Part shown: positions 50,417 to 62,009 of the stretch, piece after piece
How positions within the stretch are numbered: the first letter of the stretch is position 1
How the letters are laid out: each line of letters opens with the position of its first letter
Assembly: GCA_039630325.1 (NCBI GenBank)
Contig: JBCNVG010000029.1
Location: 17,094-81,093 of the forward strand
From: Bacteroidia bacterium
Lineage (GTDB): Bacteria > Bacteroidota > Bacteroidia > SpSt-205
Length of the DNA stretch: 64,000 nucleotides
Direction: 5' to 3'
The notes under the pieces: model-generated
Databases searched by the model: none
What the model was told of the DNA's origin: nothing
Seen by the model: only the letters and a program-made list of their open reading frames with translations
Position numbers and translations under genes: made by a program

Positions 50417-50920
50417 GTGGCGGTCCTCGTGCTTAACTACGACTATCAGCCTATTCACATCACTACTTGGCGCCGAGCGATCGTCCTTGTGTTGAAGCAA
50501 AAAGCGGAAATTATAGAGGCCCGCCCTGACCGCTGCTTACGCACGGTTCGAGCTGAATATGCTTACCCCAGCATCATACGGCTAATGCGCTATGTGCCTG
50601 TGCCCCATAAACATATTCCCCTCACGCGTCAGAATATCTTTCGGCGAGATGGATATCGCTGTGCTTACTGCGGAACTTCCCACCACCTGACGATTGATCA
50701 CGTTATCCCTCGGAGTCAAGGTGGAGAAAGTACATGGGAGAATCTGGTTACCGCCTGTGAGCCTTGCAATCGACGCAAGGGTAATCGAACCCCTCAACAA
50801 GCGGGAATGCCTCTGCTTATTCGTCCACGCAGGCCTCATCACCTCCTTTTCTGGCTGCGGGGGGCCGAGGAGATAGATACCTCCTGGCGACCTTATTTGA
50901 TGTTGGAAGTACGACCATGA
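50417..50920 (+). CDS. HNH endonuclease-family protein, 167 aa
   Basis: CAYCG…HHLTIDHVIPRSQGG…WENLVTACEPCNRRKGN is a complete HNH/zinc-finger motif. Stop overlaps the next start (ATGA). Confidence 0.8.
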   Translation: MAVLVLNYDYQPIHITTWRRAIVLVLKQKAEIIEARPDRCLRTVRAEYAYPSIIRLMRYVPVPHKHIPLTRQNIFRRDGYRCAYCGTSHHLTIDHVIPRSQGGESTWENLVTACEPCNRRKGNRTPQQAGMPLLIRPRRPHHLLFWLRGAEEIDTSWRPYLMLEVRP

Positions 50921-52018: not shown

Positions 52019-54124
52019 TTACGCTGTGAAGAGTTCTAAACTGTGCTTCTGGGCATAAGCGGTGAGATATTCTCGGAGTACGGGATATAAGGCTAAGGAG
52101 GGATCTTGAGCCACGAGGTCCTCAGCGGCTTGGCGAGCCTGACGAAGGATGGTTTGGTCTTGGATGATATCAGCCACTTTGAATTCGGGTAGGCCGCTCT
52201 GCTTCGTGCCTAAAAAGTCTCCGGGCCCGCGCAGTTGGAGGTCTATTTCGGCAATCCGAAATCCGTCGCTGTACTGGGCCAGGGCGCGCAGCCGTTCCAT
52301 GGCGGTCTCGGAGAGGTCATTAGGGGCCATAAAAATGGCATATGACGCATGCTCGCCTCGTCCCACGCGCCCCCGAAGCTGGTGAAGCTGAGAAAGGCCA
52401 AATCGATCGGCATGTTCCACAATCAGCACCGTAGCGTTGGGCACATCCACGCCTACTTCCACGACGGTAGTACCGACCAGGATGCGAGTTTGACCCGACT
52501 TAAAGAGCTGCATTTCTCGCTCTTTTCTCTCACTATTCATTCGGCCGTGGATGATCCCCACAGCGTATTCTGGAAACTCTCGACGAACTGTTTCATATCC
52601 CTCTTCCACGGCTTTGAGGTCTACTTTTTCAGACTCTTCTACGAGGGGGTAAATGATATAAGCTTGCCGTCCTTTTTGAAGCTCGGCTCGGAGGAGGCTC
52701 CACACTTCTCGGCGATGAGCTTCCGTGCGAATCAGCGTCTTAACGGGCTTGCGTCCAGGCGGAAGCTCGTCAATCACCGATACATCGACGTCTCCATACA
52801 CCGATAGGGCTAAGGTTCGGGGTATCGGTGTCGCGGTAAGGAGTAGGTTATGGGGGCGATAAGGATGGGCTTTTTCCCAAAGGGCTGCTCGCTGTTTGAC
52901 GCCAAACTTGTGCTGCTCATCGATGATAGTGAGGCCTAATCGGTGGTACTGAACATTTTTCTGGAAGAGAGCATGAGTCCCGATTATGCAAGCTAATTCA
53001 CCGCTGGCCAGCTTATCTAAGATTCGGCGTTTCTGACCCGGCGGGGTGCTACCTAAGAGCAGCCCTACACCAACTCCCAGAGGCGCAAGCCACTTTCGAA
53101 AGCTGCGAGCGTGCTGCTCGGCTAAGACCTCTGTCGGGGCCATAAGGGCCACTTGGTATCCATTCCCGATGGATATGAGCGAGGCAAATAGCGCCACGAT
53201 GGTTTTACCGCTTCCTACATCGCCTTGGATCAGCCTGTTCATAGGTGTGCTAAGCGCCATGTCCCGCCGAATCTCTTTGATGACTCGCTTTTGCGCTTCG
53301 GTAAGGGGGAAGGGCAAATACTTTTCATAAAACTCATTGACCAAAGGGCCTACTTGGGTAAAGGCAGGAGCCGTGTATTGGGACTTGAGGAAGTATTTCC
53401 GACGAATGAGAAGGACTTGCAAGAGAAAGAACTCCTGAAACTTGAAGCGGTACATCGCTCTCTCAGCCTCTTCGATGGAAGTGGGAAGGTGTAAGGCATG
53501 AAGGGCTTCAGAGAGGGGGAGAAGATTATACTTGTCCCGAATGCTTTCAGGTATAGGGTCGTCTTGTTTGAACTGCGTGAGGCGATATAGCTCCTCAAAA
53601 AGCATGTGAAATCGCTTGTTGTCTAATCCTACTTGACGAAGTTTCTCTGTGAGCGGATAAACTGGATAAACTCGTAAGAAATGCTCGGGCGCCTTCCCTG
53701 CCGTGAGGGGAATAATGTCTGGGTGCGCCATTTGTAGAATGCGCTTTTTGTAGGTAGGGCGGCCGATAGCCAGGACCTCCTGCCCGGGGAGCAGTTTTTG
53801 GCGGAGCCACTCCCATCCCTGATACCAAACTAATTCCATCCACGCCTGGCCGTCGTATAAAGTGCTGGTGAGAATGGCGCGTTTGCCCCCCCCCACTGCC
53901 TTTATCTGGAGAGGACCTAACTTTCCTCGGAATACGGCTTCTTGATCTGGGCGGGCTTGCGCGATGGGAGTGATTTGGGCATAGTCTAAGTAGCGGCGAG
54001 GAAAATAATATAAAAGGTCCTCAAACGTGTACAGTCCCAGGTCAGATCGAAGGACCTCAGCACGCCGAGGACCTACGCCTTTCAAGTAAGCCAGACTACT
54101 TTTCCATACTTCTGTCTGGGTCAT
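52019..54124 (-). CDS. recG: ATP-dependent DNA helicase RecG
   Basis: Wedge/OB N-terminal domain, DEAD-box motifs (GDVGSGKT, DEQH, …SAT…), RecG-typical length of 701 aa. Confidence 0.9.
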   Translation of the reverse strand: MTQTEVWKSSLAYLKGVGPRRAEVLRSDLGLYTFEDLLYYFPRRYLDYAQITPIAQARPDQEAVFRGKLGPLQIKAVGGGKRAILTSTLYDGQAWMELVWYQGWEWLRQKLLPGQEVLAIGRPTYKKRILQMAHPDIIPLTAGKAPEHFLRVYPVYPLTEKLRQVGLDNKRFHMLFEELYRLTQFKQDDPIPESIRDKYNLLPLSEALHALHLPTSIEEAERAMYRFKFQEFFLLQVLLIRRKYFLKSQYTAPAFTQVGPLVNEFYEKYLPFPLTEAQKRVIKEIRRDMALSTPMNRLIQGDVGSGKTIVALFASLISIGNGYQVALMAPTEVLAEQHARSFRKWLAPLGVGVGLLLGSTPPGQKRRILDKLASGELACIIGTHALFQKNVQYHRLGLTIIDEQHKFGVKQRAALWEKAHPYRPHNLLLTATPIPRTLALSVYGDVDVSVIDELPPGRKPVKTLIRTEAHRREVWSLLRAELQKGRQAYIIYPLVEESEKVDLKAVEEGYETVRREFPEYAVGIIHGRMNSERKEREMQLFKSGQTRILVGTTVVEVGVDVPNATVLIVEHADRFGLSQLHQLRGRVGRGEHASYAIFMAPNDLSETAMERLRALAQYSDGFRIAEIDLQLRGPGDFLGTKQSGLPEFKVADIIQDQTILRQARQAAEDLVAQDPSLALYPVLREYLTAYAQKHSLELFTA

Positions 54125-54126
54125 TC

Positions 54127-57100
54127 TTAGTGCTTCAGCAAACGAGCCCTAACCTCTCCCACCGATGGAGACACTGCCACCAGCGTATAAAATCCTGCTG
54201 AAACTCCCTGTAAAGACAATTGGTACAAGCCTCCTTGAGAAAAGGTCCACTCTCGCACCAGTCGTCCTGTGGCTTCGTACAGATAAAGGCGCCAGTGGCC
54301 TTCTGGAAGGTTCAAATAAAGAGCATCATGGGCAGGATTAGGATAGAGTCCAATAGGAGAGTGGGCATTGTAGAGGGCTGTGGGCGTTTGCGGTTCAGTC
54401 CGAAGGACAGTAATAGAACGGCTAAGGCTGTCTCGGCAGTTGAAATTAATAGCTACGAGCGTGACGGTATAAGTGCCAGGTTGAGTATAAGCATACGAAG
54501 GGGAAATACTCGTGCTAGTATCTCCTGTACCGAATCGCCAGATGTACTGGGTGGCACCAACGGAGGTATTAGTGAAGTATACGGTGCCACCGCCTGCATT
54601 GAGGTCTACTGGATTGGGAGCGGCGGTGAAGTTCGCTTGGAGGCCTAATGTAGCGCAGTTCCAGTGGACTTCTATTTCCTGAACGGCGGTATCACTACAC
54701 AGGCCATTGCTTACGGCGAGGACGATCGGGAATCGACCAGCTCGGGTGTAGGTATGGGTGGGATTAGCTGTGCCGCTAACGGGGGCCGATCCATCGCCAA
54801 AATTCCACCATCGCTGAGTCGGTACAGGGGTGCTCTGGTCTGTAAAAGTAACGGGCTGTCCTACCTGCGCAGTAGCTGGTGCCGAAAACTGGGCATTTAT
54901 AGGAGAGCCTAAAGTTATTGTCACGCTATCAGCAGCCGTACATCCTGCGGAGTTTTGAGCGATTACTTTGTAGGTGCCAGAAGTTGTAGCATTGAGCTGG
55001 CATCCTGTACTCGGGAGAGGATTATTATTCAAAAACCACTGACAGGTTGCTGCTTGAGGACCTGCATCCAGAGTGACAGAGGGGGCGCACAGAGCCTGGT
55101 CAGGACCGAGGTTCACGCTAAATCTGCTATAGCTTACCCGAATGCTATCTATACCAGTGCAGCCCGATGAGTTACTTACCAGCACGGTATAAAGGCCATC
55201 TTGCGTCGCCAAGATAGTTTGGGTAGTAGCTATGGCTACACCATTGAGAGTCCAGAGATACTGATTGCCAGGAAAGCCTGCGTCTAATAGAGGAGGAGAG
55301 GCTCCTGCGCACAGAGTCAGGTCAGGGCCGAGGTTTACAGGGATACTGGGAAGCACTTGGAGATTGAAAGTATCTCGTCCGTTACACCCACCAGGATAAG
55401 ACACCTCTACGACATACTGCCCTGCTGTACTGGCAGGATGAGAGGTGGTATTAGTAGCTATGATGTTGCCATTATAGTACCAGGTAATGGTCGCGCCGGG
55501 AAAGGTATTGATAGAGAGGGTTACGGGAGGGTCATTTTGGCAGCGGAAAGTATCGGGAGGTAGGGCAGGCTGAGGAGTGCTTACGACATAGACGAGGAGG
55601 CTATCCCAAGGGGAGGTTCCGCAGCAATTAGTAGAGACGCGGAGCTTCACCCAGTAGGCGCCAGGGGCGGAAAATGTCACAGGAGGGGGATTTTGCGCTA
55701 AGGACGAAGCGGGTGTGCCCCCAGGGAAGATCCATTCATAGCCATCAGCGGCCACAGGTGTGGAGAATGAGATGGGTGTACCTATGCAGGTAGTTAGATT
55801 AGAGGCTTGAATCTGAGGTATAGGGGTTCGACGAGTGATAAGAATGAAATCGGCGTAGGAATAAGGCAGACCATCGACCAGAAGGGTCGGGGTTTTGGCT
55901 CCATCGGATGGATAGAGTACGCTACCTGAGGAGGAGGTAAGGGCGACTGGGTCACCTCCTGTATTCCAGACGAAGTAAGAGCCTGAGGCACTGGTAGAGA
56001 GGGAGACAGGCTGATAAGTACACGAGGTTACATTATCCACGAGTATGGGCGGTTCAAGAGGATTGTACCCATTCTGGACAATAACGGGATAGACTCCTGG
56101 GGCGGGGTGCTCATAGAGGGTATAAGCTACGCCTGGCGAGCCATTTCCACCACGTCCACCATTGCCGCCGCGTCCGCCATTGCCGCCGCGTCCGCCAGCG
56201 CCGCCTTCGCAGCCAGCTGCATTGCCGCCATTGAGCAATCGATCGTTTCCTGGGGCTCCGCCGAGACCGCCCGCTCCGCCGAGGCCGCCCGCTCCGCCAA
56301 GTCCAGCGGCCCCCGGCCCCCCAGTGGAGAGCCGACAATCTTTGATTAGACCGTTTGGTCCATTAGCCCAGATGAAAATGGCGAAGCTACCTCCCCCTGC
56401 CGTCCCGCGCGTGCCTTTGGTACCGCGCTGTCCGCCTTCGCCCCCTCCGCCTCCGCCGCCTCCTGGACTATTCCAGTCGTAGGTGACTCCATTGAAGCCA
56501 GGGATACAACCGACGCTTCCCCCCCCGCCTCCGCCGCCACCGCCACTCCCATCTGTCCCATCTGTCCCGTCCGTCCCGTCCTGCGGTACGAAATACCCCC
56601 CTGTGAACTGAGCTATCCCATCCTGTCCATTTTGCCCGTCTTGTCCATCGGCACCAGGTTGGCCGTCTGTACCCGTATGATCAGGTTGGCTGAAATGCGT
56701 AGGGCAGTTATTGAAAAAGTTGATAATGTCGGTGGCATTGAGCCCATTTGAGCAGTAGCAGAGGCCAGGCTTGCCTATGCCGCCTGCTCCGCCCCCAGGT
56801 CCATTTCCAGAGGTGCCATTTTGCCCTCCTGGGGCTGAGATTACGCTTGGGTCACAAAGACTACAAAACAAGCAGTTCGTGCCAGTGCCGCGGGCTCCCC
56901 CATTGCCCCCGGCTCCTCCCGCTCGCGCTCCTCCTGACCAGCTACTCCCGCCTGCTCCGCCGAGGTTGGTATAAGGAGGAGTCGTCGGATCACATCGTCG
57001 GCAGCCTAAACCGCCTGGTTGACCAGGAGCGCCGGCTGCCCCATTCACACCCGGCGTGCCATTAAGGCCATCTCCCCCCTTTCCTGCATGGACCTTACAC

Positions 57101-57579
57101 CGAGCTATGGTATAATCCCGACAGCCATTTAGATATATGCCATAAGTAGAGATACCAGGCCCTGGGGCATCAGCCACTTCTATCTCCAAATCTTGTAATC
57201 GGAACCCGCGTCGACCCACCGCTACAATAGCCGTCAAGCGAGGTGGCGCTGGCTCAATCCCCACCGCGCTCCGTACCAGTTTCGTAATCGCTGTATTTGA
57301 CTTCTTCCAGCCCTGGGCTGGGAGGTAGCCCCCTTCAATAATCACGCTGTCTATGGGCAAAACAATCGGAGCAGTCAAAGTGTAGGTTCCAGCGGCTAAC
57401 CGCAAATACCGCGCCGAGGGCGATATGAGAGATAAGCCATAAGTAAGATTGGCCGGATTGGCGCGGGTGCCAGCAGTACCGCTGCTGGCACCAGAGGGAG
57501 AGACATAGATGATACCGCATTCCTGAGCCGATGCTATTACTACATACAAGCCCAGAGCAAGCCATCGAGATAACGCCAT
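54127..57579 (-). CDS. Giant secreted T9SS cargo protein: N-terminal beta-helix-like region, collagen-like Gly-rich tracts, multiple PKD/Ig-like domains, type-A C-terminal sorting domain. 1150 aa.
   Basis: Signal peptide. GGxGGxGG tracts. Repeated Ig-like modules of about 90 aa with conserved Cys/Trp spacing. C-terminus …LYPNPAHDALYLNL…YTLVAV…RLLKH matches the T9SS CTD. Confidence 0.75.
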   Translation of the reverse strand: MALSRWLALGLYVVIASAQECGIIYVSPSGASSGTAGTRANPANLTYGLSLISPSARYLRLAAGTYTLTAPIVLPIDSVIIEGGYLPAQGWKKSNTAITKLVRSAVGIEPAPPRLTAIVAVGRRGFRLQDLEIEVADAPGPGISTYGIYLNGCRDYTIARCKVHAGKGGDGLNGTPGVNGAAGAPGQPGGLGCRRCDPTTPPYTNLGGAGGSSWSGGARAGGAGGNGGARGTGTNCLFCSLCDPSVISAPGGQNGTSGNGPGGGAGGIGKPGLCYCSNGLNATDIINFFNNCPTHFSQPDHTGTDGQPGADGQDGQNGQDGIAQFTGGYFVPQDGTDGTDGTDGSGGGGGGGGGSVGCIPGFNGVTYDWNSPGGGGGGGGEGGQRGTKGTRGTAGGGSFAIFIWANGPNGLIKDCRLSTGGPGAAGLGGAGGLGGAGGLGGAPGNDRLLNGGNAAGCEGGAGGRGGNGGRGGNGGRGGNGSPGVAYTLYEHPAPGVYPVIVQNGYNPLEPPILVDNVTSCTYQPVSLSTSASGSYFVWNTGGDPVALTSSSGSVLYPSDGAKTPTLLVDGLPYSYADFILITRRTPIPQIQASNLTTCIGTPISFSTPVAADGYEWIFPGGTPASSLAQNPPPVTFSAPGAYWVKLRVSTNCCGTSPWDSLLVYVVSTPQPALPPDTFRCQNDPPVTLSINTFPGATITWYYNGNIIATNTTSHPASTAGQYVVEVSYPGGCNGRDTFNLQVLPSIPVNLGPDLTLCAGASPPLLDAGFPGNQYLWTLNGVAIATTQTILATQDGLYTVLVSNSSGCTGIDSIRVSYSRFSVNLGPDQALCAPSVTLDAGPQAATCQWFLNNNPLPSTGCQLNATTSGTYKVIAQNSAGCTAADSVTITLGSPINAQFSAPATAQVGQPVTFTDQSTPVPTQRWWNFGDGSAPVSGTANPTHTYTRAGRFPIVLAVSNGLCSDTAVQEIEVHWNCATLGLQANFTAAPNPVDLNAGGGTVYFTNTSVGATQYIWRFGTGDTSTSISPSYAYTQPGTYTVTLVAINFNCRDSLSRSITVLRTEPQTPTALYNAHSPIGLYPNPAHDALYLNLPEGHWRLYLYEATGRLVREWTFSQGGLYQLSLQGVSAGFYTLVAVSPSVGEVRARLLKH
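56151..56313 (-). repeat. In-frame 18-bp tandem repeats in the Gly-codon region of the giant gene. Three copies encode GGNGGR and three encode (LGGAGG)-like units. A 9-bp (DGT)n repeat lies near 56548..56585.
   Basis: Direct reading: 56151-56168, 56169-56186 and 56187-56204 form one set. 56260-56277, 56278-56295 and 56296-56313 form the other. ccatctgtc/ccgtccgtc 9-mers occur at about 56548-56585. Confidence 0.8.
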
Positions 57580-57673
57580 GTTGGCAAATATAGGGATTTC
57601 ATATGTCCAGCTCTGGCCTACTTCCCTGGTAGACGAGGTTTAATCGGGATAAAAATTGTTTCTTTGCTGCGAT

Positions 57674-58534
57674 ATGAAACGGATAAGCACACTCGGTTTA
57701 GCAGCGCTTTCATTTGCGCTCATTATCGTAGGATGTAAGAAGAAAGACGACGACCATAGCCATGGCGATGGAGGTGGTAGCCCTATTCAAATGCGCTGGG
57801 TTAGCTTAGGTCATGGGCATGACGCTCAGGATAGGTATCATGTGGATTTAGAGGCTGAGCTTCCCGTAGGACAGGATACCCTTACGGAGGGGTATTATCG
57901 GTTTAGAGCGAAAATAATGCGAAATGGTAGTCTGTATGGAGGGAGTGATGTGAGGTTTTTGCCCATGATGTACATGACTGATCACAGTCACTCCTGCCCA
58001 ACTGAGCAGCCTATGGGTCCGAGCCAAGATGGCTATTACTATGGGGCGGCCTTCTTCATGATGCCAACGATGATGGGTCAGCCCTGGAAGATGCATGTAA
58101 AAATAGGTGCAACAGATAGTGTATCCTTTACCATTCAAGTCAATCCCCATCCTCGAGGCTGGGTGAGACGAGGTCGTCAGTTCGGTAATCCGAATAATCC
58201 GCGTTACCTGTACGAAATGAAACTTCCACGGGCGGGGGTCGGTGCTCAGGACGTCAGCTTCTATGTGTATAAGAGAGATATGGCCCAGCCAGCCACGGAT
58301 CCAGCAGCCTTCCCAGCGGCTACGAACATTACTCAGATAGATTTAGAAACGTGGATGCCCAGCATGAGTCATGGAGGCGGTCCTGGTACGCGAAGTGCCA
58401 TGCCTGTGCAAGGGAAACCCGGACGACTTGATGGAAAGGTAGACTTCAACATGAGTGGGGATTGGTGGGTGATTGCCACCTTCAAGGAGGGGAATAATGT
58501 GATTGGGAAAGATACGTTTGCGCTCGAATTCTAA
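57674..58534 (+). CDS. His/Met-rich lipoprotein, paralog A (ORF track starts 57656; likely start MKRIS…)
   Basis: Lipobox (LIIVGCKK). Conserved HxH…HSCP and Met-rich segments (MMYMTDHSHSCP…FFMMPTMMGQPWKMHV). About 45% identical to the next ORF. Confidence 0.5.
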   Translation: MKRISTLGLAALSFALIIVGCKKKDDDHSHGDGGGSPIQMRWVSLGHGHDAQDRYHVDLEAELPVGQDTLTEGYYRFRAKIMRNGSLYGGSDVRFLPMMYMTDHSHSCPTEQPMGPSQDGYYYGAAFFMMPTMMGQPWKMHVKIGATDSVSFTIQVNPHPRGWVRRGRQFGNPNNPRYLYEMKLPRAGVGAQDVSFYVYKRDMAQPATDPAAFPAATNITQIDLETWMPSMSHGGGPGTRSAMPVQGKPGRLDGKVDFNMSGDWWVIATFKEGNNVIGKDTFALEF

Positions 58535-58864: not shown

Positions 58865-59743
58865 ATGAGAAGAATACACTTATTTATATCGGTCCTCTGG
58901 GTCCTGACTGTCGCAGGATGTGAAGAGAAAGAACAGGCTTCCAATCAAGAAAACCAGGGAGGAGGGGCAGCTCAGACTTACTGGACCTCATCAGGTGTAG
59001 TGTTAGCGGGTAGTAATGGTAGTGCCTCGGGCGCGTATGTGGAAAGATTAGAAGTTGAGGTTGTGGCTGGGGTAAGTATGCCTACCGAGGGATATCACCG
59101 GGTTAGGGCTAAAATAAAGCGAGGTTATGACCTCTATGCAGGAAGAGATGTGAAATTTTTACCAATGATGTATGGGCATGATCATCCTGTACACAGCTGT
59201 CCGGTTGAGCAGCCTAATGGGCCAAGCGAAGATGGATATTATTATGGGGCAGTGTTTTTTATGAGACCAAATATGCCTAATCATCACTGGAAAATACACG
59301 TAATCATAGGCGAAAGAGACACTACGACCTTTGTCCTTGATGTTGCGCAGCATCCATGGAATGGTGTTAGGCCTGGGGATGATTTCACACCCATAGATAG
59401 CTTCTCGTACTTCTATGAGGTGGTGCCACTTAAATCTACGGATGGATTTAAAGATGCTGTTTTTCTCATTTATAGGCGCGATAGAAATCAGCCAGTAGTA
59501 CAGCCTTCTGCTTTTTTGCCAGCGAATAATATTACACAGATAGATCTCCAAGCTCGGATCCCTAATACAGGGCACAGCGTCGGTTCGGGTATTCACACTG
59601 CTACTCCTACCTCGGGCAGGCCTGGACGCTTTACCGCTAAGAAGGTATTTGACAAAGCGGGTTTTTGGGAGCTAATACTTACCTGCAAGGAGGGAGAAAC
59701 GGTGGTGTTAAGGGATACTTTGCACCTTATTATTGGAAGTTAA
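58865..59743 (+). CDS. His-rich lipoprotein, paralog B (lower GC than paralog A)
   Basis: Lipobox (LTVAGCEE). Shares blocks EGYHRVRAKI, FLPMMYGHDHPVHSCPVEQPNGPSEDGYYYGAVFFM, WKIHVIIG, NITQIDL, GRPGRF with paralog A. Confidence 0.5.
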   Translation: MRRIHLFISVLWVLTVAGCEEKEQASNQENQGGGAAQTYWTSSGVVLAGSNGSASGAYVERLEVEVVAGVSMPTEGYHRVRAKIKRGYDLYAGRDVKFLPMMYGHDHPVHSCPVEQPNGPSEDGYYYGAVFFMRPNMPNHHWKIHVIIGERDTTTFVLDVAQHPWNGVRPGDDFTPIDSFSYFYEVVPLKSTDGFKDAVFLIYRRDRNQPVVQPSAFLPANNITQIDLQARIPNTGHSVGSGIHTATPTSGRPGRFTAKKVFDKAGFWELILTCKEGETVVLRDTLHLIIGS

Positions 59744-60977: not shown

Positions 60978-62009
60978 TTAGGAGGCGAGGGAAGAAGGCG
61001 TTTTGTGCGTCCCTCGATAATATTCCACGGTGCTGCGCAGGACATTGAGAAGTTCAGTCAGGCCCTCATGCGTCGCTCCAGAGACGAATAGCTGCGGAAC
61101 GGGCACATCAGGGAAGCGGTAAGAGTCTCGAGCCTCTGGGGGTATGAGATCGCATTTGGTGAAGGCAATCAGGTAAGGTTTTTCTATAAGAGCGGGATGA
61201 TATTTTTGGAGTTCTAAGCGTAGGCTATGGAAGAGGTGCCGAGGGTCTGGATGGTCCAAAGGAAGGGTGAAAAGAAGGATAGCCCCTCGTTCCACATGGC
61301 GCAAAAATCGCAAGCCGAGTCCTTTGCCCTCAGAGGCGCCCTCTATAAGGCCTGGTAGGTCGGCTATTACGAAGCTTCGCATGCGTTCATCTTGGACGAC
61401 GCCGAGGTGGGGTACGAGGGTAGTGAAAGGATAGGGTGCTATTTTGGGGCGTGCTCGAGTGAGCACGCTTAGAAGGGTAGATTTGCCAGCGTTGGGGGGA
61501 CCGACCAGACAGACATCTGCTAAGAGTTTGAGTTCTAATCGGACGAATCGCTTCTCGCCCGGTTCGCCTGGCTCAGCGAAGTCTGGGGCTCGCAAAGTAG
61601 GCGAACGAAATGCATAGTTGCCGCGGCCTCCCCGTCCCCCGCGAGCCAAGAGTACTCTCTGTGCTGGTTTCACCACTTCTCCTAGAAACTCTCCTGTATC
61701 GTCATCCCAGGCGACGGTTCCCAGAGGTACGCGCAGGATAATATCCTCTCCGGAGGCACCCCGTTGACATTGCCCACGCCCGCTCTCTCCAGAAGGAGCT
61801 CGTATGATTCGGCGGTATTTCACATCCAGGAGGGTCCATTTCTGAGGATCTCCTTCTATCCAAATACTCCCCCCATCGCCGCCGTCTCCCCCATCTGGTC
61901 CTCCTCTTGGAACGAACTTTTCTCTTCGCCAATGGATCACCCCATTTCCCCCGTCCCCCGCTTCTACACGCAGTTTTACATAATCCACGAAATCACTTTC
62001 CCCTTGCAT
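60978..62009 (-). CDS. obg: GTPase Obg/CgtA
   Basis: Obg fold (FVDYVKLRVEAGDGGNGVIHWRREKFVPRGGPDGGDGGDGGSIW) plus G-domain (GPPNAGKSTLL). Confidence 0.9.
   Translation of the reverse strand: MQGESDFVDYVKLRVEAGDGGNGVIHWRREKFVPRGGPDGGDGGDGGSIWIEGDPQKWTLLDVKYRRIIRAPSGESGRGQCQRGASGEDIILRVPLGTVAWDDDTGEFLGEVVKPAQRVLLARGGRGGRGNYAFRSPTLRAPDFAEPGEPGEKRFVRLELKLLADVCLVGPPNAGKSTLLSVLTRARPKIAPYPFTTLVPHLGVVQDERMRSFVIADLPGLIEGASEGKGLGLRFLRHVERGAILLFTLPLDHPDPRHLFHSLRLELQKYHPALIEKPYLIAFTKCDLIPPEARDSYRFPDVPVPQLFVSGATHEGLTELLNVLRSTVEYYRGTHKTPSSLAS

What the first reader, a model, noticed from the sequence alone, without database searches (positions are those of the whole stretch)
54127..57579. Giant collagen-like/PKD T9SS cargo gene with perfect in-frame 18-bp and 9-bp tandem repeats
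The 1150-aa protein combines an N-terminal beta-helix-like module, long GGxGGxGG tracts, Ig/PKD-like repeats and a T9SS C-terminal domain, so it is an adhesin- or S-layer-like surface protein. The Gly-codon region contains exact tandem units, all in frame: three 18-mers at 56151..56204, three more at 56260..56313, and 9-mers around 56548..56585. Such repeats can expand or contract by replication slippage, giving length variation of a surface protein. The gene is also only 2 bp downstream of recG on the same strand, which is an unusual neighbour for a surface protein.
Basis: seen in the sequence. Interest (0 to 1): 0.5.

Follow-up and report, generated by a model that had tools for sequence, protein, structure and literature searches.

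The report
Glycine-rich surface protein; fixed-length repeats
This is an intact gene for a secreted cell-surface protein of an uncultured Bacteroidia bacterium whose short DNA repeats simply encode a conserved glycine-rich structural module of fixed length, not a slippage-prone variable region.

Summary
The gene is real: window 54127..57579 on the minus strand, 1150 aa, uninterrupted. It has a signal peptide, a short right-handed beta-helix, a 320-aa glycine-rich module, Ig-like and PKD domains, and a C-terminal T9SS sorting domain.

The "perfect" tandem repeats are not perfect. No array has more than about 2.2 exact copies, and the units differ at synonymous sites.

- The tracts carrying the repeats have the same length in 160-171 of about 170 homologs, down to about 35% identity. 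The loops between them vary from 0 to 61 aa.
- A near-identical strain has no indel.
- An 83%-identical ortholog has the same copy numbers.
- Only one 69%-identical ortholog lacks a single 18-nt unit.

The repeats are the coding footprint of (G-G-x)n and (G-x-x)n tracts. AlphaFold models these with high confidence as neither helix nor strand. The only structural match above noise is the polyglycine-II sandwich of phage S16 gp38, and it is weak.

The module defines a large family of T9SS cargo proteins with no Pfam, NCBIfam or PDB counterpart.

recG lies 2 nt downstream of the gene, not upstream. This tight junction is kept only in the closest relatives.

The parts
54127..57579 (-). Complete gene, 1150 codons plus TAA stop.
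   Evidence: ORF list. The identical protein is called on an independent assembly, L009. Full-length orthologs are L003 (1149 aa) and L004 (1148 aa).
57526..57579 (-). Signal peptide, residues 1-18 (MALSRWLALGLYVVIASA), followed by Gln19.
   Evidence: Read from the sequence. Gln19 is at least 90% conserved in alignment A2. AF2 gives a low-confidence N-terminal helix at residues 2-16. The cleavage site is inferred; no signal-peptide predictor was available.
57085..57525 (-). Short right-handed parallel beta-helix, residues 19-165.
56131..57084 (-). Glycine-rich module, residues 166-483 (36% Gly). It has eight tracts (T1 166-192, T2 207-234, T3 251-272, T4 303-321, T5 334-355, T6 373-397, T7 420-444, T8 459-483) separated by Cys-containing loops and short beta elements.
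56131..56205 (-). Tract T8, GGAGGRGGNGGRGGNGGRGGNGSPG.
   Evidence: TRF: 85% match, 3.7 copies. The units are not identical. The tract is 25 aa in 167/168 homologs. One unit is missing in L004. Codon identity between units exceeds chance, P about 0.002.
56248..56322 (-). Tract T7, GGPGAAGLGGAGGLGGAGGLGGAPG. It holds the second 18-mer array (TRF 56255..56298).
   Evidence: TRF: 2.4 copies, 96%. The tract is 25 aa in 160/169 homologs. The SNP at 56284 in L009 makes two units identical.
56515..56580 (-). Tract T5, DGTDGTDGTDGS plus G9 and S. It holds the 9-mer array (TRF 56547..56581).
   Evidence: The tract is 22 aa in 171/173 homologs. The poly-Gly codons are mixed and no more repetitive than random synonymous choice.
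56323..56388 (-). Inserted beta-helix-like rung, residues 398-419 (SFAIFIWANGPNGLIKDCRLST). It resembles the rung at residues 144-165.
   Evidence: AF2 strands at 398-404, 411-413 and 416-419. The length is 22 aa in 89% of homologs. The similarity to residues 144-165 was seen by eye.
54895..56130 (-). Ig-like domains, residues 484-895. There is one domain after the Gly module, one PKD-like domain, then three Ig_7/SprB-type repeats.
   Evidence: AF2 beta strands at 485-581. Weak Pfam Ig_2, Ig_3 and BiPBP_C hits. The family profile matches the Ig-like stem repeats of the Aureispira grappling-hook protein GhpA, 9flp_A, E 9e-125. Domain boundaries are approximate.
54400..54894 (-). Two PKD domains, residues about 896-1060.
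   Evidence: PF18911 76.7 bits and PF00801 72.7 bits; best stretch 898-969.
54130..54360 (-). T9SS type A C-terminal sorting domain, residues about 1074-1150.
   Evidence: PF18962 scores 21.8 bits here, below the cut-off of 27. It scores 32.6 bits in L003 and 31.1 in L005 at the same position. The family profile matches solved CTD chains 8glk_D and 8glj_D, E 7e-7 and 2e-5.
52019..54124 (-). recG, 701 aa, starting 2 nt after the stop codon of the surface-protein gene. It is probably co-transcribed.
   Evidence: RecG_wedge, DEAD, Helicase_C and RecG_dom3_C domains. The junction reads TAA-GA-ATG. No terminator-like site lies on the minus strand between the genes. The same tight junction is found in L003 and L004.
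57585..57592 (-). TATATTTG, a match to the Bacteroidetes -7 promoter consensus TAnnTTTG, ending 5 nt before the ATG.
   Evidence: Sequence and pattern search. The consensus is from my own knowledge. No -33 TTTG was seen. This is only a candidate promoter.

Best explanation
The gene encodes a secreted cell-surface protein of an uncultured Bacteroidia bacterium. Sec exports it, with a signal peptide probably cut after ASA. The type IX secretion system then recognises its C-terminal sorting domain, carries it across the outer membrane and leaves it on the cell surface.

The two PKD domains and the Ig-like domains before them form a stalk. The N-terminal end is the working tip. It consists of a short right-handed beta-helix and a 320-aa glycine-rich module.

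The module has eight tracts of fixed length (19-28 aa) built from G-x-x, G-G-x or pure Gly triplets. I infer that each tract is a long left-handed polyglycine-II helix. The tracts would run up and down in antiparallel pairs and pack into a hydrogen-bonded lattice rooted in the last coils of the beta-helix. Gly would face inward, with small or polar residues (N, D, A, T, R) on one face.

The connectors at the far end are Cys-rich and highly variable in length among homologs. The glycine lattice is therefore a rigid scaffold that displays variable loops, the same logic as the receptor-binding tip of phage tail-fibre adhesins. The likely role is binding a surface or ligand.

The 18-nt and 9-nt DNA repeats are the coding footprint of the (GGx)n helices. 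Units occasionally homogenise or slip, but the fold fixes their number, so they do not produce population-level length variation.

Shown: gene integrity, domain order, beta-helix fold, conserved tract lengths and Gly periodicity, imperfect DNA repeats. Inferred: polyglycine-II geometry, up-down topology, adhesive function, surface anchoring.
For: Gene and domains:
- The ORF and its domains are established.
- AF2 of residues 1-590 gives pLDDT 89.1 and pTM 0.79. The Gly tracts have no DSSP helix or strand, yet block pLDDT is 92-98. The isolated module (160-490) gives pLDDT 85.7 and pTM 0.80.
- The two non-significant Foldseek hits are a phage tail-tip protein and a phage tail fibre. The fibre is Pam3 gp24, whose glycine-rich lattice resembles gp38.

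Family-wide conservation:
- In 168 homologs Gly is at least 90% conserved at two of every three positions in T7 and T8, and at every third position in T1 and T4. T5 and T6 contain near-pure Gly runs.
- These three patterns match outer, two-layer and core positions of PPII lattices as described in bioRxiv 10.1101/2023.11.25.568672.
- Tract lengths are fixed (T5 99%, T6 94-95%, T7 94-95%, T8 99%). Alternate connectors are either fixed (hairpin 322-333, rung 398-419, strand 484-492; sd 0.5-1.0) or variable and Cys-bearing (193-206, 273-302, 356-372, 445-458; sd 4-13).

Repeats:
- Unit numbers are identical in L009, L003, L005 and P0003/4/6/7/9, with synonymous sites diverged. L004 lacks one unit.

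Family context:
- All 150 best representatives score E<=5e-134. Most of them match across the beta-helix plus Gly-rich module.
- Five of the six checked carry a Por_Secre_tail or CHU_C T9SS signal; SprB, Ig_7 or PKD repeats occur among them.
Against: - No coordinates were available, so PPII backbone angles and the lattice were not measured.
- Tract lengths of 22-27 aa are close to the 22-aa coil of the beta-helix rung, so a glycine-rich solenoid is not excluded.
- The CTD is below Pfam's threshold in this copy.
- No T9SS machinery gene lies in the examined neighbourhood.
- The top structural neighbours of the beta-helix are mostly polysaccharide lyases and hydrolases, so an enzymatic role is possible.
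- Alignments of low-complexity Gly tracts can shift indels into neighbouring loops. This would overstate length conservation.
Confidence: 0.6

Rival explanations
1. One reading: the in-frame tandem repeats are a slippage-prone tract. It makes the length of this surface protein vary between cells or strains, in the manner of a contingency locus.
For: - The units are in frame and partly identical.
- One ortholog (L004) lacks exactly one 18-nt unit.
- Unit pairs of the GGRGGN array are identical codon for codon more often than chance in three lineages, P about 0.002 each.
- The SNP at 56284 in L009 homogenises two units.
- Several database homologs (P0001, P0002, P0005) are cut at contig ends inside the Gly tracts.
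Against: - There are at most about 2.2 perfect copies.
- There is no indel in the near-identical strain L009.
- Unit numbers are the same in L003 despite saturated synonymous divergence.
- Tract length is identical in 160-171 of about 170 homologs, while adjacent loops vary widely.
- AF2 models the tracts as ordered.
- Contig breaks in Gly-codon repeats are expected from short-read assembly and do not show biological variation.
Confidence: 0.07
2. The glycine-rich tracts are not polyglycine-II helices. They are glycine-rich coils that continue the beta-helix as a solenoid, one tract per turn.
For: - Tract lengths of 22-27 aa match the 22-aa rung at 398-419, and that rung is interleaved with the tracts.
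- The N-terminal part is a genuine beta-helix.
- The structural match to a PGII sandwich is weak.
Against: - DSSP assigns no strand or bridge to any tract despite pLDDT above 90.
- The strict 3-residue Gly periodicity, G-G-x, fits a 3-residue-per-turn helix and does not fit the 2-residue in/out alternation of beta strands.
Confidence: 0.2
3. The N-terminal module is a secreted polysaccharide lyase or hydrolase rather than an adhesin. The glycine-rich part would be an accessory.
For: - T9SS commonly exports glycan-degrading enzymes (general knowledge).
Against: - No Pfam or NCBIfam catalytic family matches residues 1-590, even at E<=1.
- No PDB sequence relative exists for profile positions 1-430.
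- The beta-helix is short, about 145 aa.
- The adhesin PfbA scores equally well.
- The conserved positions are mostly Gly, Cys and aromatic residues.
Confidence: 0.15
4. The region is a collagen-like triple helix that trimerises the protein.
For: G-x-x tracts with some Pro and charged residues are present, for example GTDGQPGADGQDGQNGQDG.
Against: - There is no Collagen (PF01391) hit at E<=1.
- The longest Gly-every-third run is 10 triplets.
- Most tracts are G-G-x or pure Gly. Only 6% of the region is Pro.
- The monomer model is compact and confident.
Confidence: 0.03

Closest known systems
Type A T9SS cargo proteins of Bacteroidota (Por_Secre_tail / TIGR04183 C-terminal domain), such as multi-domain adhesins with Ig-like or PKD stalks
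   Same: It has a signal peptide, an N-terminal functional module, an Ig-like/PKD spacer region and a sorting domain of about 75 aa at the extreme C-terminus. The Ig-like repeats are sequence-related to the stem repeats of the T9SS substrate GhpA of Aureispira (bioRxiv 10.1101/2024.01.29.577165).
   Different: The CTD of this copy scores below Pfam's threshold. The N-terminal beta-helix plus glycine-rich module has no model in Pfam or NCBIfam. The protein is far shorter than GhpA or SprB, and nothing suggests a heptameric hook.
Polyglycine-II (glycine-rich PPII) helix assemblies: the PGII sandwich of phage S16 gp38, the Pam3 gp24 glycine-rich domain, snow-flea and springtail antifreeze proteins, the ALK/LTK glycine-rich domain, and the predicted PGRS domains of mycobacterial PE_PGRS proteins
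   Same: Conserved G-x-x, G-G-x and poly-Gly triplet tracts. Small or polar residues at the non-Gly position. Tracts predicted with high confidence as neither helix nor strand. Best structural hit is gp38. Like gp38 and gp24, a conserved glycine scaffold carries variable loops.
   Different: The tracts are 19-28 residues, longer than the 3-4 triplets cited for small PGII sandwiches (PMC9436101). They are interleaved with beta-helix rungs. Tract number and length are fixed across the family, whereas PGRS domains are described as polymorphic and tolerant of large indels. There is no detectable sequence homology, and membership by geometry could not be tested.
Right-handed parallel beta-helix (pectate-lyase-like) proteins, including polysaccharide lyases, phage tailspikes and the adhesin PfbA
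   Different: There are only a few coils, no recognisable catalytic family, and the helix is continued by glycine tracts instead of further beta coils.
Simple-sequence contingency loci and variable-number tandem repeats in bacterial surface-protein genes
   Same: In-frame short tandem units lie inside a surface-protein gene. One unit-sized indel separates distant relatives.
   Different: The units are imperfect, copy number is conserved at strain, species and family level, and the repeats encode an ordered structural element.

Membership tests
T9SS type A cargo (Por_Secre_tail, PF18962) | A domain of about 75 aa at the extreme C-terminus that matches the CTD model above threshold. | tested here: inconclusive
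   The window copy scores 21.8 bits against a cut-off of 27, at residues 1078-1134. Orthologs L003 and L005 score 32.6 and 31.1 bits at the same position. The family profile matches solved CTD chains 8glk_D and 8glj_D. The domain is very probably a true CTD, but this copy alone does not pass.
T9SS type A cargo (Por_Secre_tail, PF18962) | An N-terminal Sec signal peptide. | tested here: met
   The hydrophobic N-terminus MALSRWLALGLYVVIASA is followed by a conserved Gln. This was judged from the sequence; no dedicated predictor was available.
T9SS type A cargo (Por_Secre_tail, PF18962) | The host encodes the T9SS machinery (SprA/Sov, PorV, PorU, GldKLMN), and the CTD is cleaved on export. | not testable with these tools
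   Only 64 kb of the genome is available. The neighbours examined are housekeeping genes. Many relatives of the protein carry T9SS signals.
PKD domain (PF00801 / PF18911) | A match above the gathering threshold. | tested here: met
   PF18911 scores 76.7 bits (cut-off 27) and PF00801 72.7 bits (cut-off 23.5), each with three matched stretches.
Right-handed parallel beta-helix fold | Structural superposition on solved beta-helix proteins. | tested here: met
Glycine-rich polyglycine-II helix assembly | Tracts with Gly conserved at every third residue, or at two of every three. | tested here: met
   Gly frequency is at least 0.9 at two of three positions in T7 and T8, and 0.8-0.9 at every third position in T1 and T4, across 168 homologs.
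Glycine-rich polyglycine-II helix assembly | Backbone in the PPII region (phi about -75, psi about +145, 3 residues per turn) with a lattice of inter-helix hydrogen bonds. | not testable with these tools
   Model coordinates are not exposed. The only indirect evidence is that DSSP assigns no helix or strand while pLDDT exceeds 90.
Glycine-rich polyglycine-II helix assembly | Significant structural similarity to a solved PGII domain. | tested here: inconclusive
Collagen-like protein (PF01391) | A long uninterrupted (G-X-Y)n run matching the collagen model. | tested here: not met
   There is no PF01391 hit at E<=1. The longest run is 10 triplets, and Pro makes up 6% of the region.
RTX-type calcium-binding beta-roll | GGxGxDxUx nonapeptide repeats. 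| tested here: not met
   No matching Pfam family appears at E<=1. The conserved periodicity is 3, not 9, and there is no hydrophobic position.
Slippage-driven variable repeat (contingency locus) | Several perfect tandem copies. | tested here: not met
   The longest exact self-match is 21 nt at lag 18, about 2.2 copies. The other arrays are shorter.
Slippage-driven variable repeat (contingency locus) | Copy-number differences between close relatives. | tested here: not met
   There is no indel in L009, which differs at 3 of 9453 nt. L003 has the same numbers. Tract length is invariant in 160-171 of about 170 homologs. The single exception is L004, which lacks one unit.

The most novel reading that the evidence does not exclude
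The beta-helix plus glycine-rich module may define a large, unannotated family of Bacteroidota T9SS surface proteins. In this family eight unusually long (19-28 residue) antiparallel polyglycine-II helices would sprout from the coils of a beta-helix and display hypervariable, disulfide-stapled loops. That would be a cellular counterpart of the receptor-binding tip of phage tail fibres, and the largest family of PGII-lattice proteins outside mycobacterial PE_PGRS.
Probability: 0.45. Interest if true: 0.55.

Novelty: new variant of a known kind. Interest (0 to 1): 0.33.

Why it matters
For the finding as written, the result is deflationary. The repeats are imperfect, their number is fixed by protein structure, and there is no sign of a length-variable surface antigen. 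It is a useful caution: in-frame Gly-codon repeats can be the footprint of an ordered fold rather than a mutational hotspot.

The by-product is more interesting. A module of about 470 aa recurs in the best-scoring T9SS cargo representatives, yet it has no Pfam, NCBIfam or PDB counterpart. It is predicted with high confidence to contain long ordered glycine tracts. If these are polyglycine-II helices, the family would add many bacterial examples to a rare fold class that interests protein designers. It would also point to the variable loops, not the repeats, as the place where binding specificity evolves.

Tried and rejected
- Collagen-like protein: rejected. No Pfam hit, short tracts, low Pro.
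- RTX beta-roll: rejected because the periodicity is wrong.
- Disordered low-complexity linker: rejected because of high pLDDT and family-wide fixed tract lengths.
- Lipoprotein: rejected. The residues before Cys21 (A-Q-E) do not form a lipobox (sequence).
- Functional link to recG: not supported. The tight junction is kept in L003 and L004. The more distant homologs in L001 and L005 have other downstream genes, and the upstream neighbours differ in L002.
- Single-sequence PDB search of residues 1-590: only low-complexity noise.
- Self-BLAST of residues 485-1150: the Ig-like domains are too diverged to show internal repeats at E<=0.01.
- Foldseek of the Gly module against the PDB: nothing significant.
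- The afdb50 fold library was unavailable.
- Literature searches linking T9SS cargo to polyglycine-II or PPII domains found nothing relevant in the held library.
- I did not run the metagenome DNA scan for strain-level repeat variants. The exact-protein look-up found this protein on only one other contig, and the best hits in the protein search were partial at 79-86% identity, so exact flanking patterns were unlikely to match anything else.

Full report
**1. What is at the coordinates**

The window holds one uninterrupted ORF of 1150 codons at 54127..57579, on the minus strand. However, both this gene and recG (52019..54124) are on the minus strand, so recG follows the gene rather than preceding it. 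The junction reads TAA-GA-ATG.

Pfam finds PKD domains: PF18911 at 76.7 bits and PF00801 at 72.7 bits, with the best stretch at residues 898-969. It also finds weak Ig-like matches. A C-terminal Por_Secre_tail match at residues 1078-1134 scores 21.8 bits, below the cut-off of 27. NCBIfam adds only a match of the same C-terminal stretch to the tail of TapA-type T9SS proteins. Nothing in either library covers residues 1-590.

**2. The repeats**

Tandem Repeats Finder reports three arrays:
- 56140-56205: period 18, 3.7 copies, 85% matches.
- 56255-56298: period 18, 2.4 copies, 96% matches.
- 56547-56581: period 9, 3.9 copies, 92% matches.

Read in the gene's frame, they encode GGRGGN x3, G(L)GGAG x3 and DGT x3-4. 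The amino-acid repeats are perfect, but the DNA repeats are not:
- At 56260..56313 the first unit differs from the second at 6 of 18 positions, and the second from the third at 1.
- Only the last two 9-mers are identical.

I resampled synonymous codons for the same peptide using the gene's own codon usage. Only the GGRGGN array has more unit-to-unit DNA identity than the protein repeat imposes: a 21-nt exact self-match at lag 18 against a mean of 8.0, P=0.002. The other 18-mer array gives P=0.03 and the 9-mers give P=0.06. The poly-Gly runs are no more repetitive than random.

**3. Do the repeats vary?**

I compared relatives at four levels.

(a) Near-identical strain. The exact protein is encoded on an independently assembled contig from run SRR28200752 (L009). 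Over 9453 nt it differs from the window at three positions and has no indel.

(b) Closest ortholog. L003 is a MAG labelled Bacteroidia bacterium SKYG57, 83% identical in protein. It has the same number of units in every tract, although synonymous sites have diverged freely.

(c) Next ortholog. L004 (69% identical) lacks exactly one 18-nt GGRGGN unit and is otherwise collinear.

(d) The wider family. Seven more distant homologs at 36-52% identity align through the tracts without gaps. A profile search of 1.84 billion representative proteins returned 150 best hits, all at E<=5e-134. Most of them match across the N-terminal beta-helix plus Gly-rich module.

I re-aligned these hits and the earlier ones to the profile, which gave 168 sequences that cover the module. 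The tract lengths are:
- Residues 459-483 (first 18-mer array): 25 aa in 167 of 168.
- Residues 420-444 (second array): 25 aa in 160 of 169.
- Residues 334-355 (9-mers plus G9): 22 aa in 171 of 173.

The loops between the tracts range from 0 to 61 aa.

Three details show that units do interact occasionally:
- L004 has lost exactly one unit.
- In the window, L003 and L004, different pairs of GGRGGN units are identical codon for codon.
- The only SNP inside the gene in L009, at 56284, falls on the single base that separates two units of the second array and makes them identical.

I read this as rare slippage or conversion under strong selection for a fixed unit number. An assembly artefact at that SNP cannot be excluded.

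**4. What the glycine region is**

AlphaFold2 was run on residues 1-590 with a 42-sequence alignment. It gives mean pLDDT 89.1 and pTM 0.79. Strands fill residues 23-165. Short beta elements lie at 324-331, 398-419 and 485-490. The glycine tracts receive no helix or strand assignment, yet block pLDDT is mostly 92-98.

The sequence pattern is conserved across 168 homologs:
- T7 and T8 are (G-G-x)8 with Gly at least 90% conserved at two of three positions. The x position is mostly N, A, D or T.
- T1 and T4 are (G-x-x)n.
- T5 and T6 contain near-pure Gly runs.

A review of such domains describes exactly these three compositions as the outer, two-layer and fully buried positions of PPII-helix lattices (bioRxiv 10.1101/2023.11.25.568672).

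The connectors alternate. The hairpin at 322-333, the rung at 398-419 and the strand at 484-492 have nearly fixed length (sd 0.5-1.0). The connectors at 193-206, 273-302, 356-372 and 445-458 vary (sd 4-13) and carry most of the cysteines.

This fits an up-and-down arrangement. Each tract would be one long helix, the fixed connectors would stack onto the beta-helix, and the variable loops would sit at the far end. I could not obtain coordinates, so the PPII geometry itself is inferred and not measured.

**5. The rest of the protein and the family**

The family profile matches the Ig-like stem repeats of GhpA, the T9SS-secreted grappling-hook protein of Aureispira (9flp_A, E 9e-125, profile positions 432-766 only). 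It also matches solved T9SS C-terminal domains (8glk_D and 8glj_D, E 7e-7 and 2e-5). It matches nothing for profile positions 1-430.

The CTD passes Pfam's threshold in orthologs L003 (32.6 bits) and L005 (31.1 bits) at the same position.

I scanned six representatives of the wider family. Five carry a Por_Secre_tail or CHU_C T9SS signal; SprB, Ig_7 and PKD repeats occur among them, and one has RCC1 repeats. None has a Pfam model on the module itself. In many large proteins the module lies internally, at about residues 550-1330.

The N-terminus MALSRWLALGLYVVIASA|QEC looks like a Sec signal peptide followed by a conserved Gln. In Bacteroidota a Gln after the cleavage site is typical of signal peptidase I substrates. 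That point is from my own knowledge.

**6. Most likely function**

The protein is a T9SS-exported surface protein. The PKD and Ig-like domains act as a stalk. The tip is a beta-helix carrying a rigid glycine lattice that presents variable, disulfide-stapled loops. By analogy with gp38 and gp24, the loops rather than the repeats are where specificity would evolve, and the likely activity is binding.

An enzymatic role for the beta-helix is possible, because many structural neighbours are lyases. However, no catalytic family matches by sequence.

**7. recG**

The 2-nt gap (window), a 2-nt gap (L003, TGA-GG-ATG) and a 1-nt overlap (L004, TGATG) show a conserved tight junction in the three closest genomes. 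No terminator-like site lies between the genes on the minus strand, so co-transcription is likely.

More distant homologs have other downstream genes (L001 and L005). The surrounding genes are housekeeping: Obg, Dxr, a GT2 glycosyltransferase, NlpC/P60 and an HNH protein. I see compact gene packing and no functional link.

**8. Verdict**

- Observation: partly confirmed.
- Interpretation: partly supported. The surface-protein reading holds; the slippage reading does not.
- The gene is an ordinary member of a large family of T9SS cargo proteins.
- The family's N-terminal module is unannotated and probably contains an unusual polyglycine-II lattice. That is a modestly interesting by-product and remains unproven here.

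Noticed in passing
window 56284 (minus-strand codon 432), compared with L009: A near-identical strain (3 differences in 9453 nt) carries GGT instead of GGC. This is exactly the one base that separates two adjacent 18-nt units, so the units become identical there. It could be conversion between units or an assembly artefact.
   Followed up: partly
window 57585..57592 (-): TATATTTG matches the Bacteroidetes -7 promoter consensus TAnnTTTG and ends 5 nt before the gene's ATG. That would imply a leaderless or near-leaderless mRNA. No -33 TTTG element was seen.
   Followed up: partly
window 57656..58534 (+) and 58865..59743 (+): Two adjacent 292-aa ORFs are clearly paralogous by eye, sharing motifs such as FLPMMY, CP.EQP.GPS.DGYYYGA.FFM and WK.HV.IG. 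Both have lipoprotein-like N-termini. Only the first reaches the YtkA-like Pfam threshold (26.9 bits). They are transcribed divergently from the surface-protein gene.
   Followed up: partly
window 60978..62009 (-): An Obg GTPase gene (GTP1_OBG, 194.5 bits) lies 3.4 kb away. Its N-terminal domain is one of the known glycine-rich PPII-helix folds. The proximity is a coincidence and there is no sequence relation to the module studied.
   Followed up: no
P0001, P0002 and P0005 (alignment A1): Three database homologs are partial proteins that end inside the glycine tracts, and two of them (P0002, P0005) are labelled partial by NCBI. P0002's gene runs to the end of its contig. Short-read assemblies probably break in these Gly-codon repeats, so family members are likely under-represented or truncated in MAGs.
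   Followed up: no
L001 6001..9578: The homolog P0003 is called as a 990-aa protein, followed 35 nt later by a 189-aa ORF that carries a PKD domain and the T9SS tail. This looks like one gene split by a frameshift or an assembly error.
   Followed up: no
L005 5944..12795: The 42%-identical homolog is followed directly by a second 1110-aa PKD/T9SS-tail protein instead of recG. This is a tandem pair of surface-protein genes.
   Followed up: no
window 50417..50920 (+): A 167-aa HNH endonuclease-domain ORF sits between an NlpC/P60-SH3 peptidase gene and an amidohydrolase-like gene. The same arrangement seems to be kept next to recG in L003, judging by ORF sizes only.
   Followed up: no
one search hit list (P0125, P0138, P0176, P0244 and others): The same beta-helix plus glycine-rich module occurs inside giant proteins of 3000-6600 aa, often starting near residue 550. 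One case follows RCC1 repeats (P0205). The module is thus a mobile building block of very large Bacteroidota surface proteins.
   Followed up: partly
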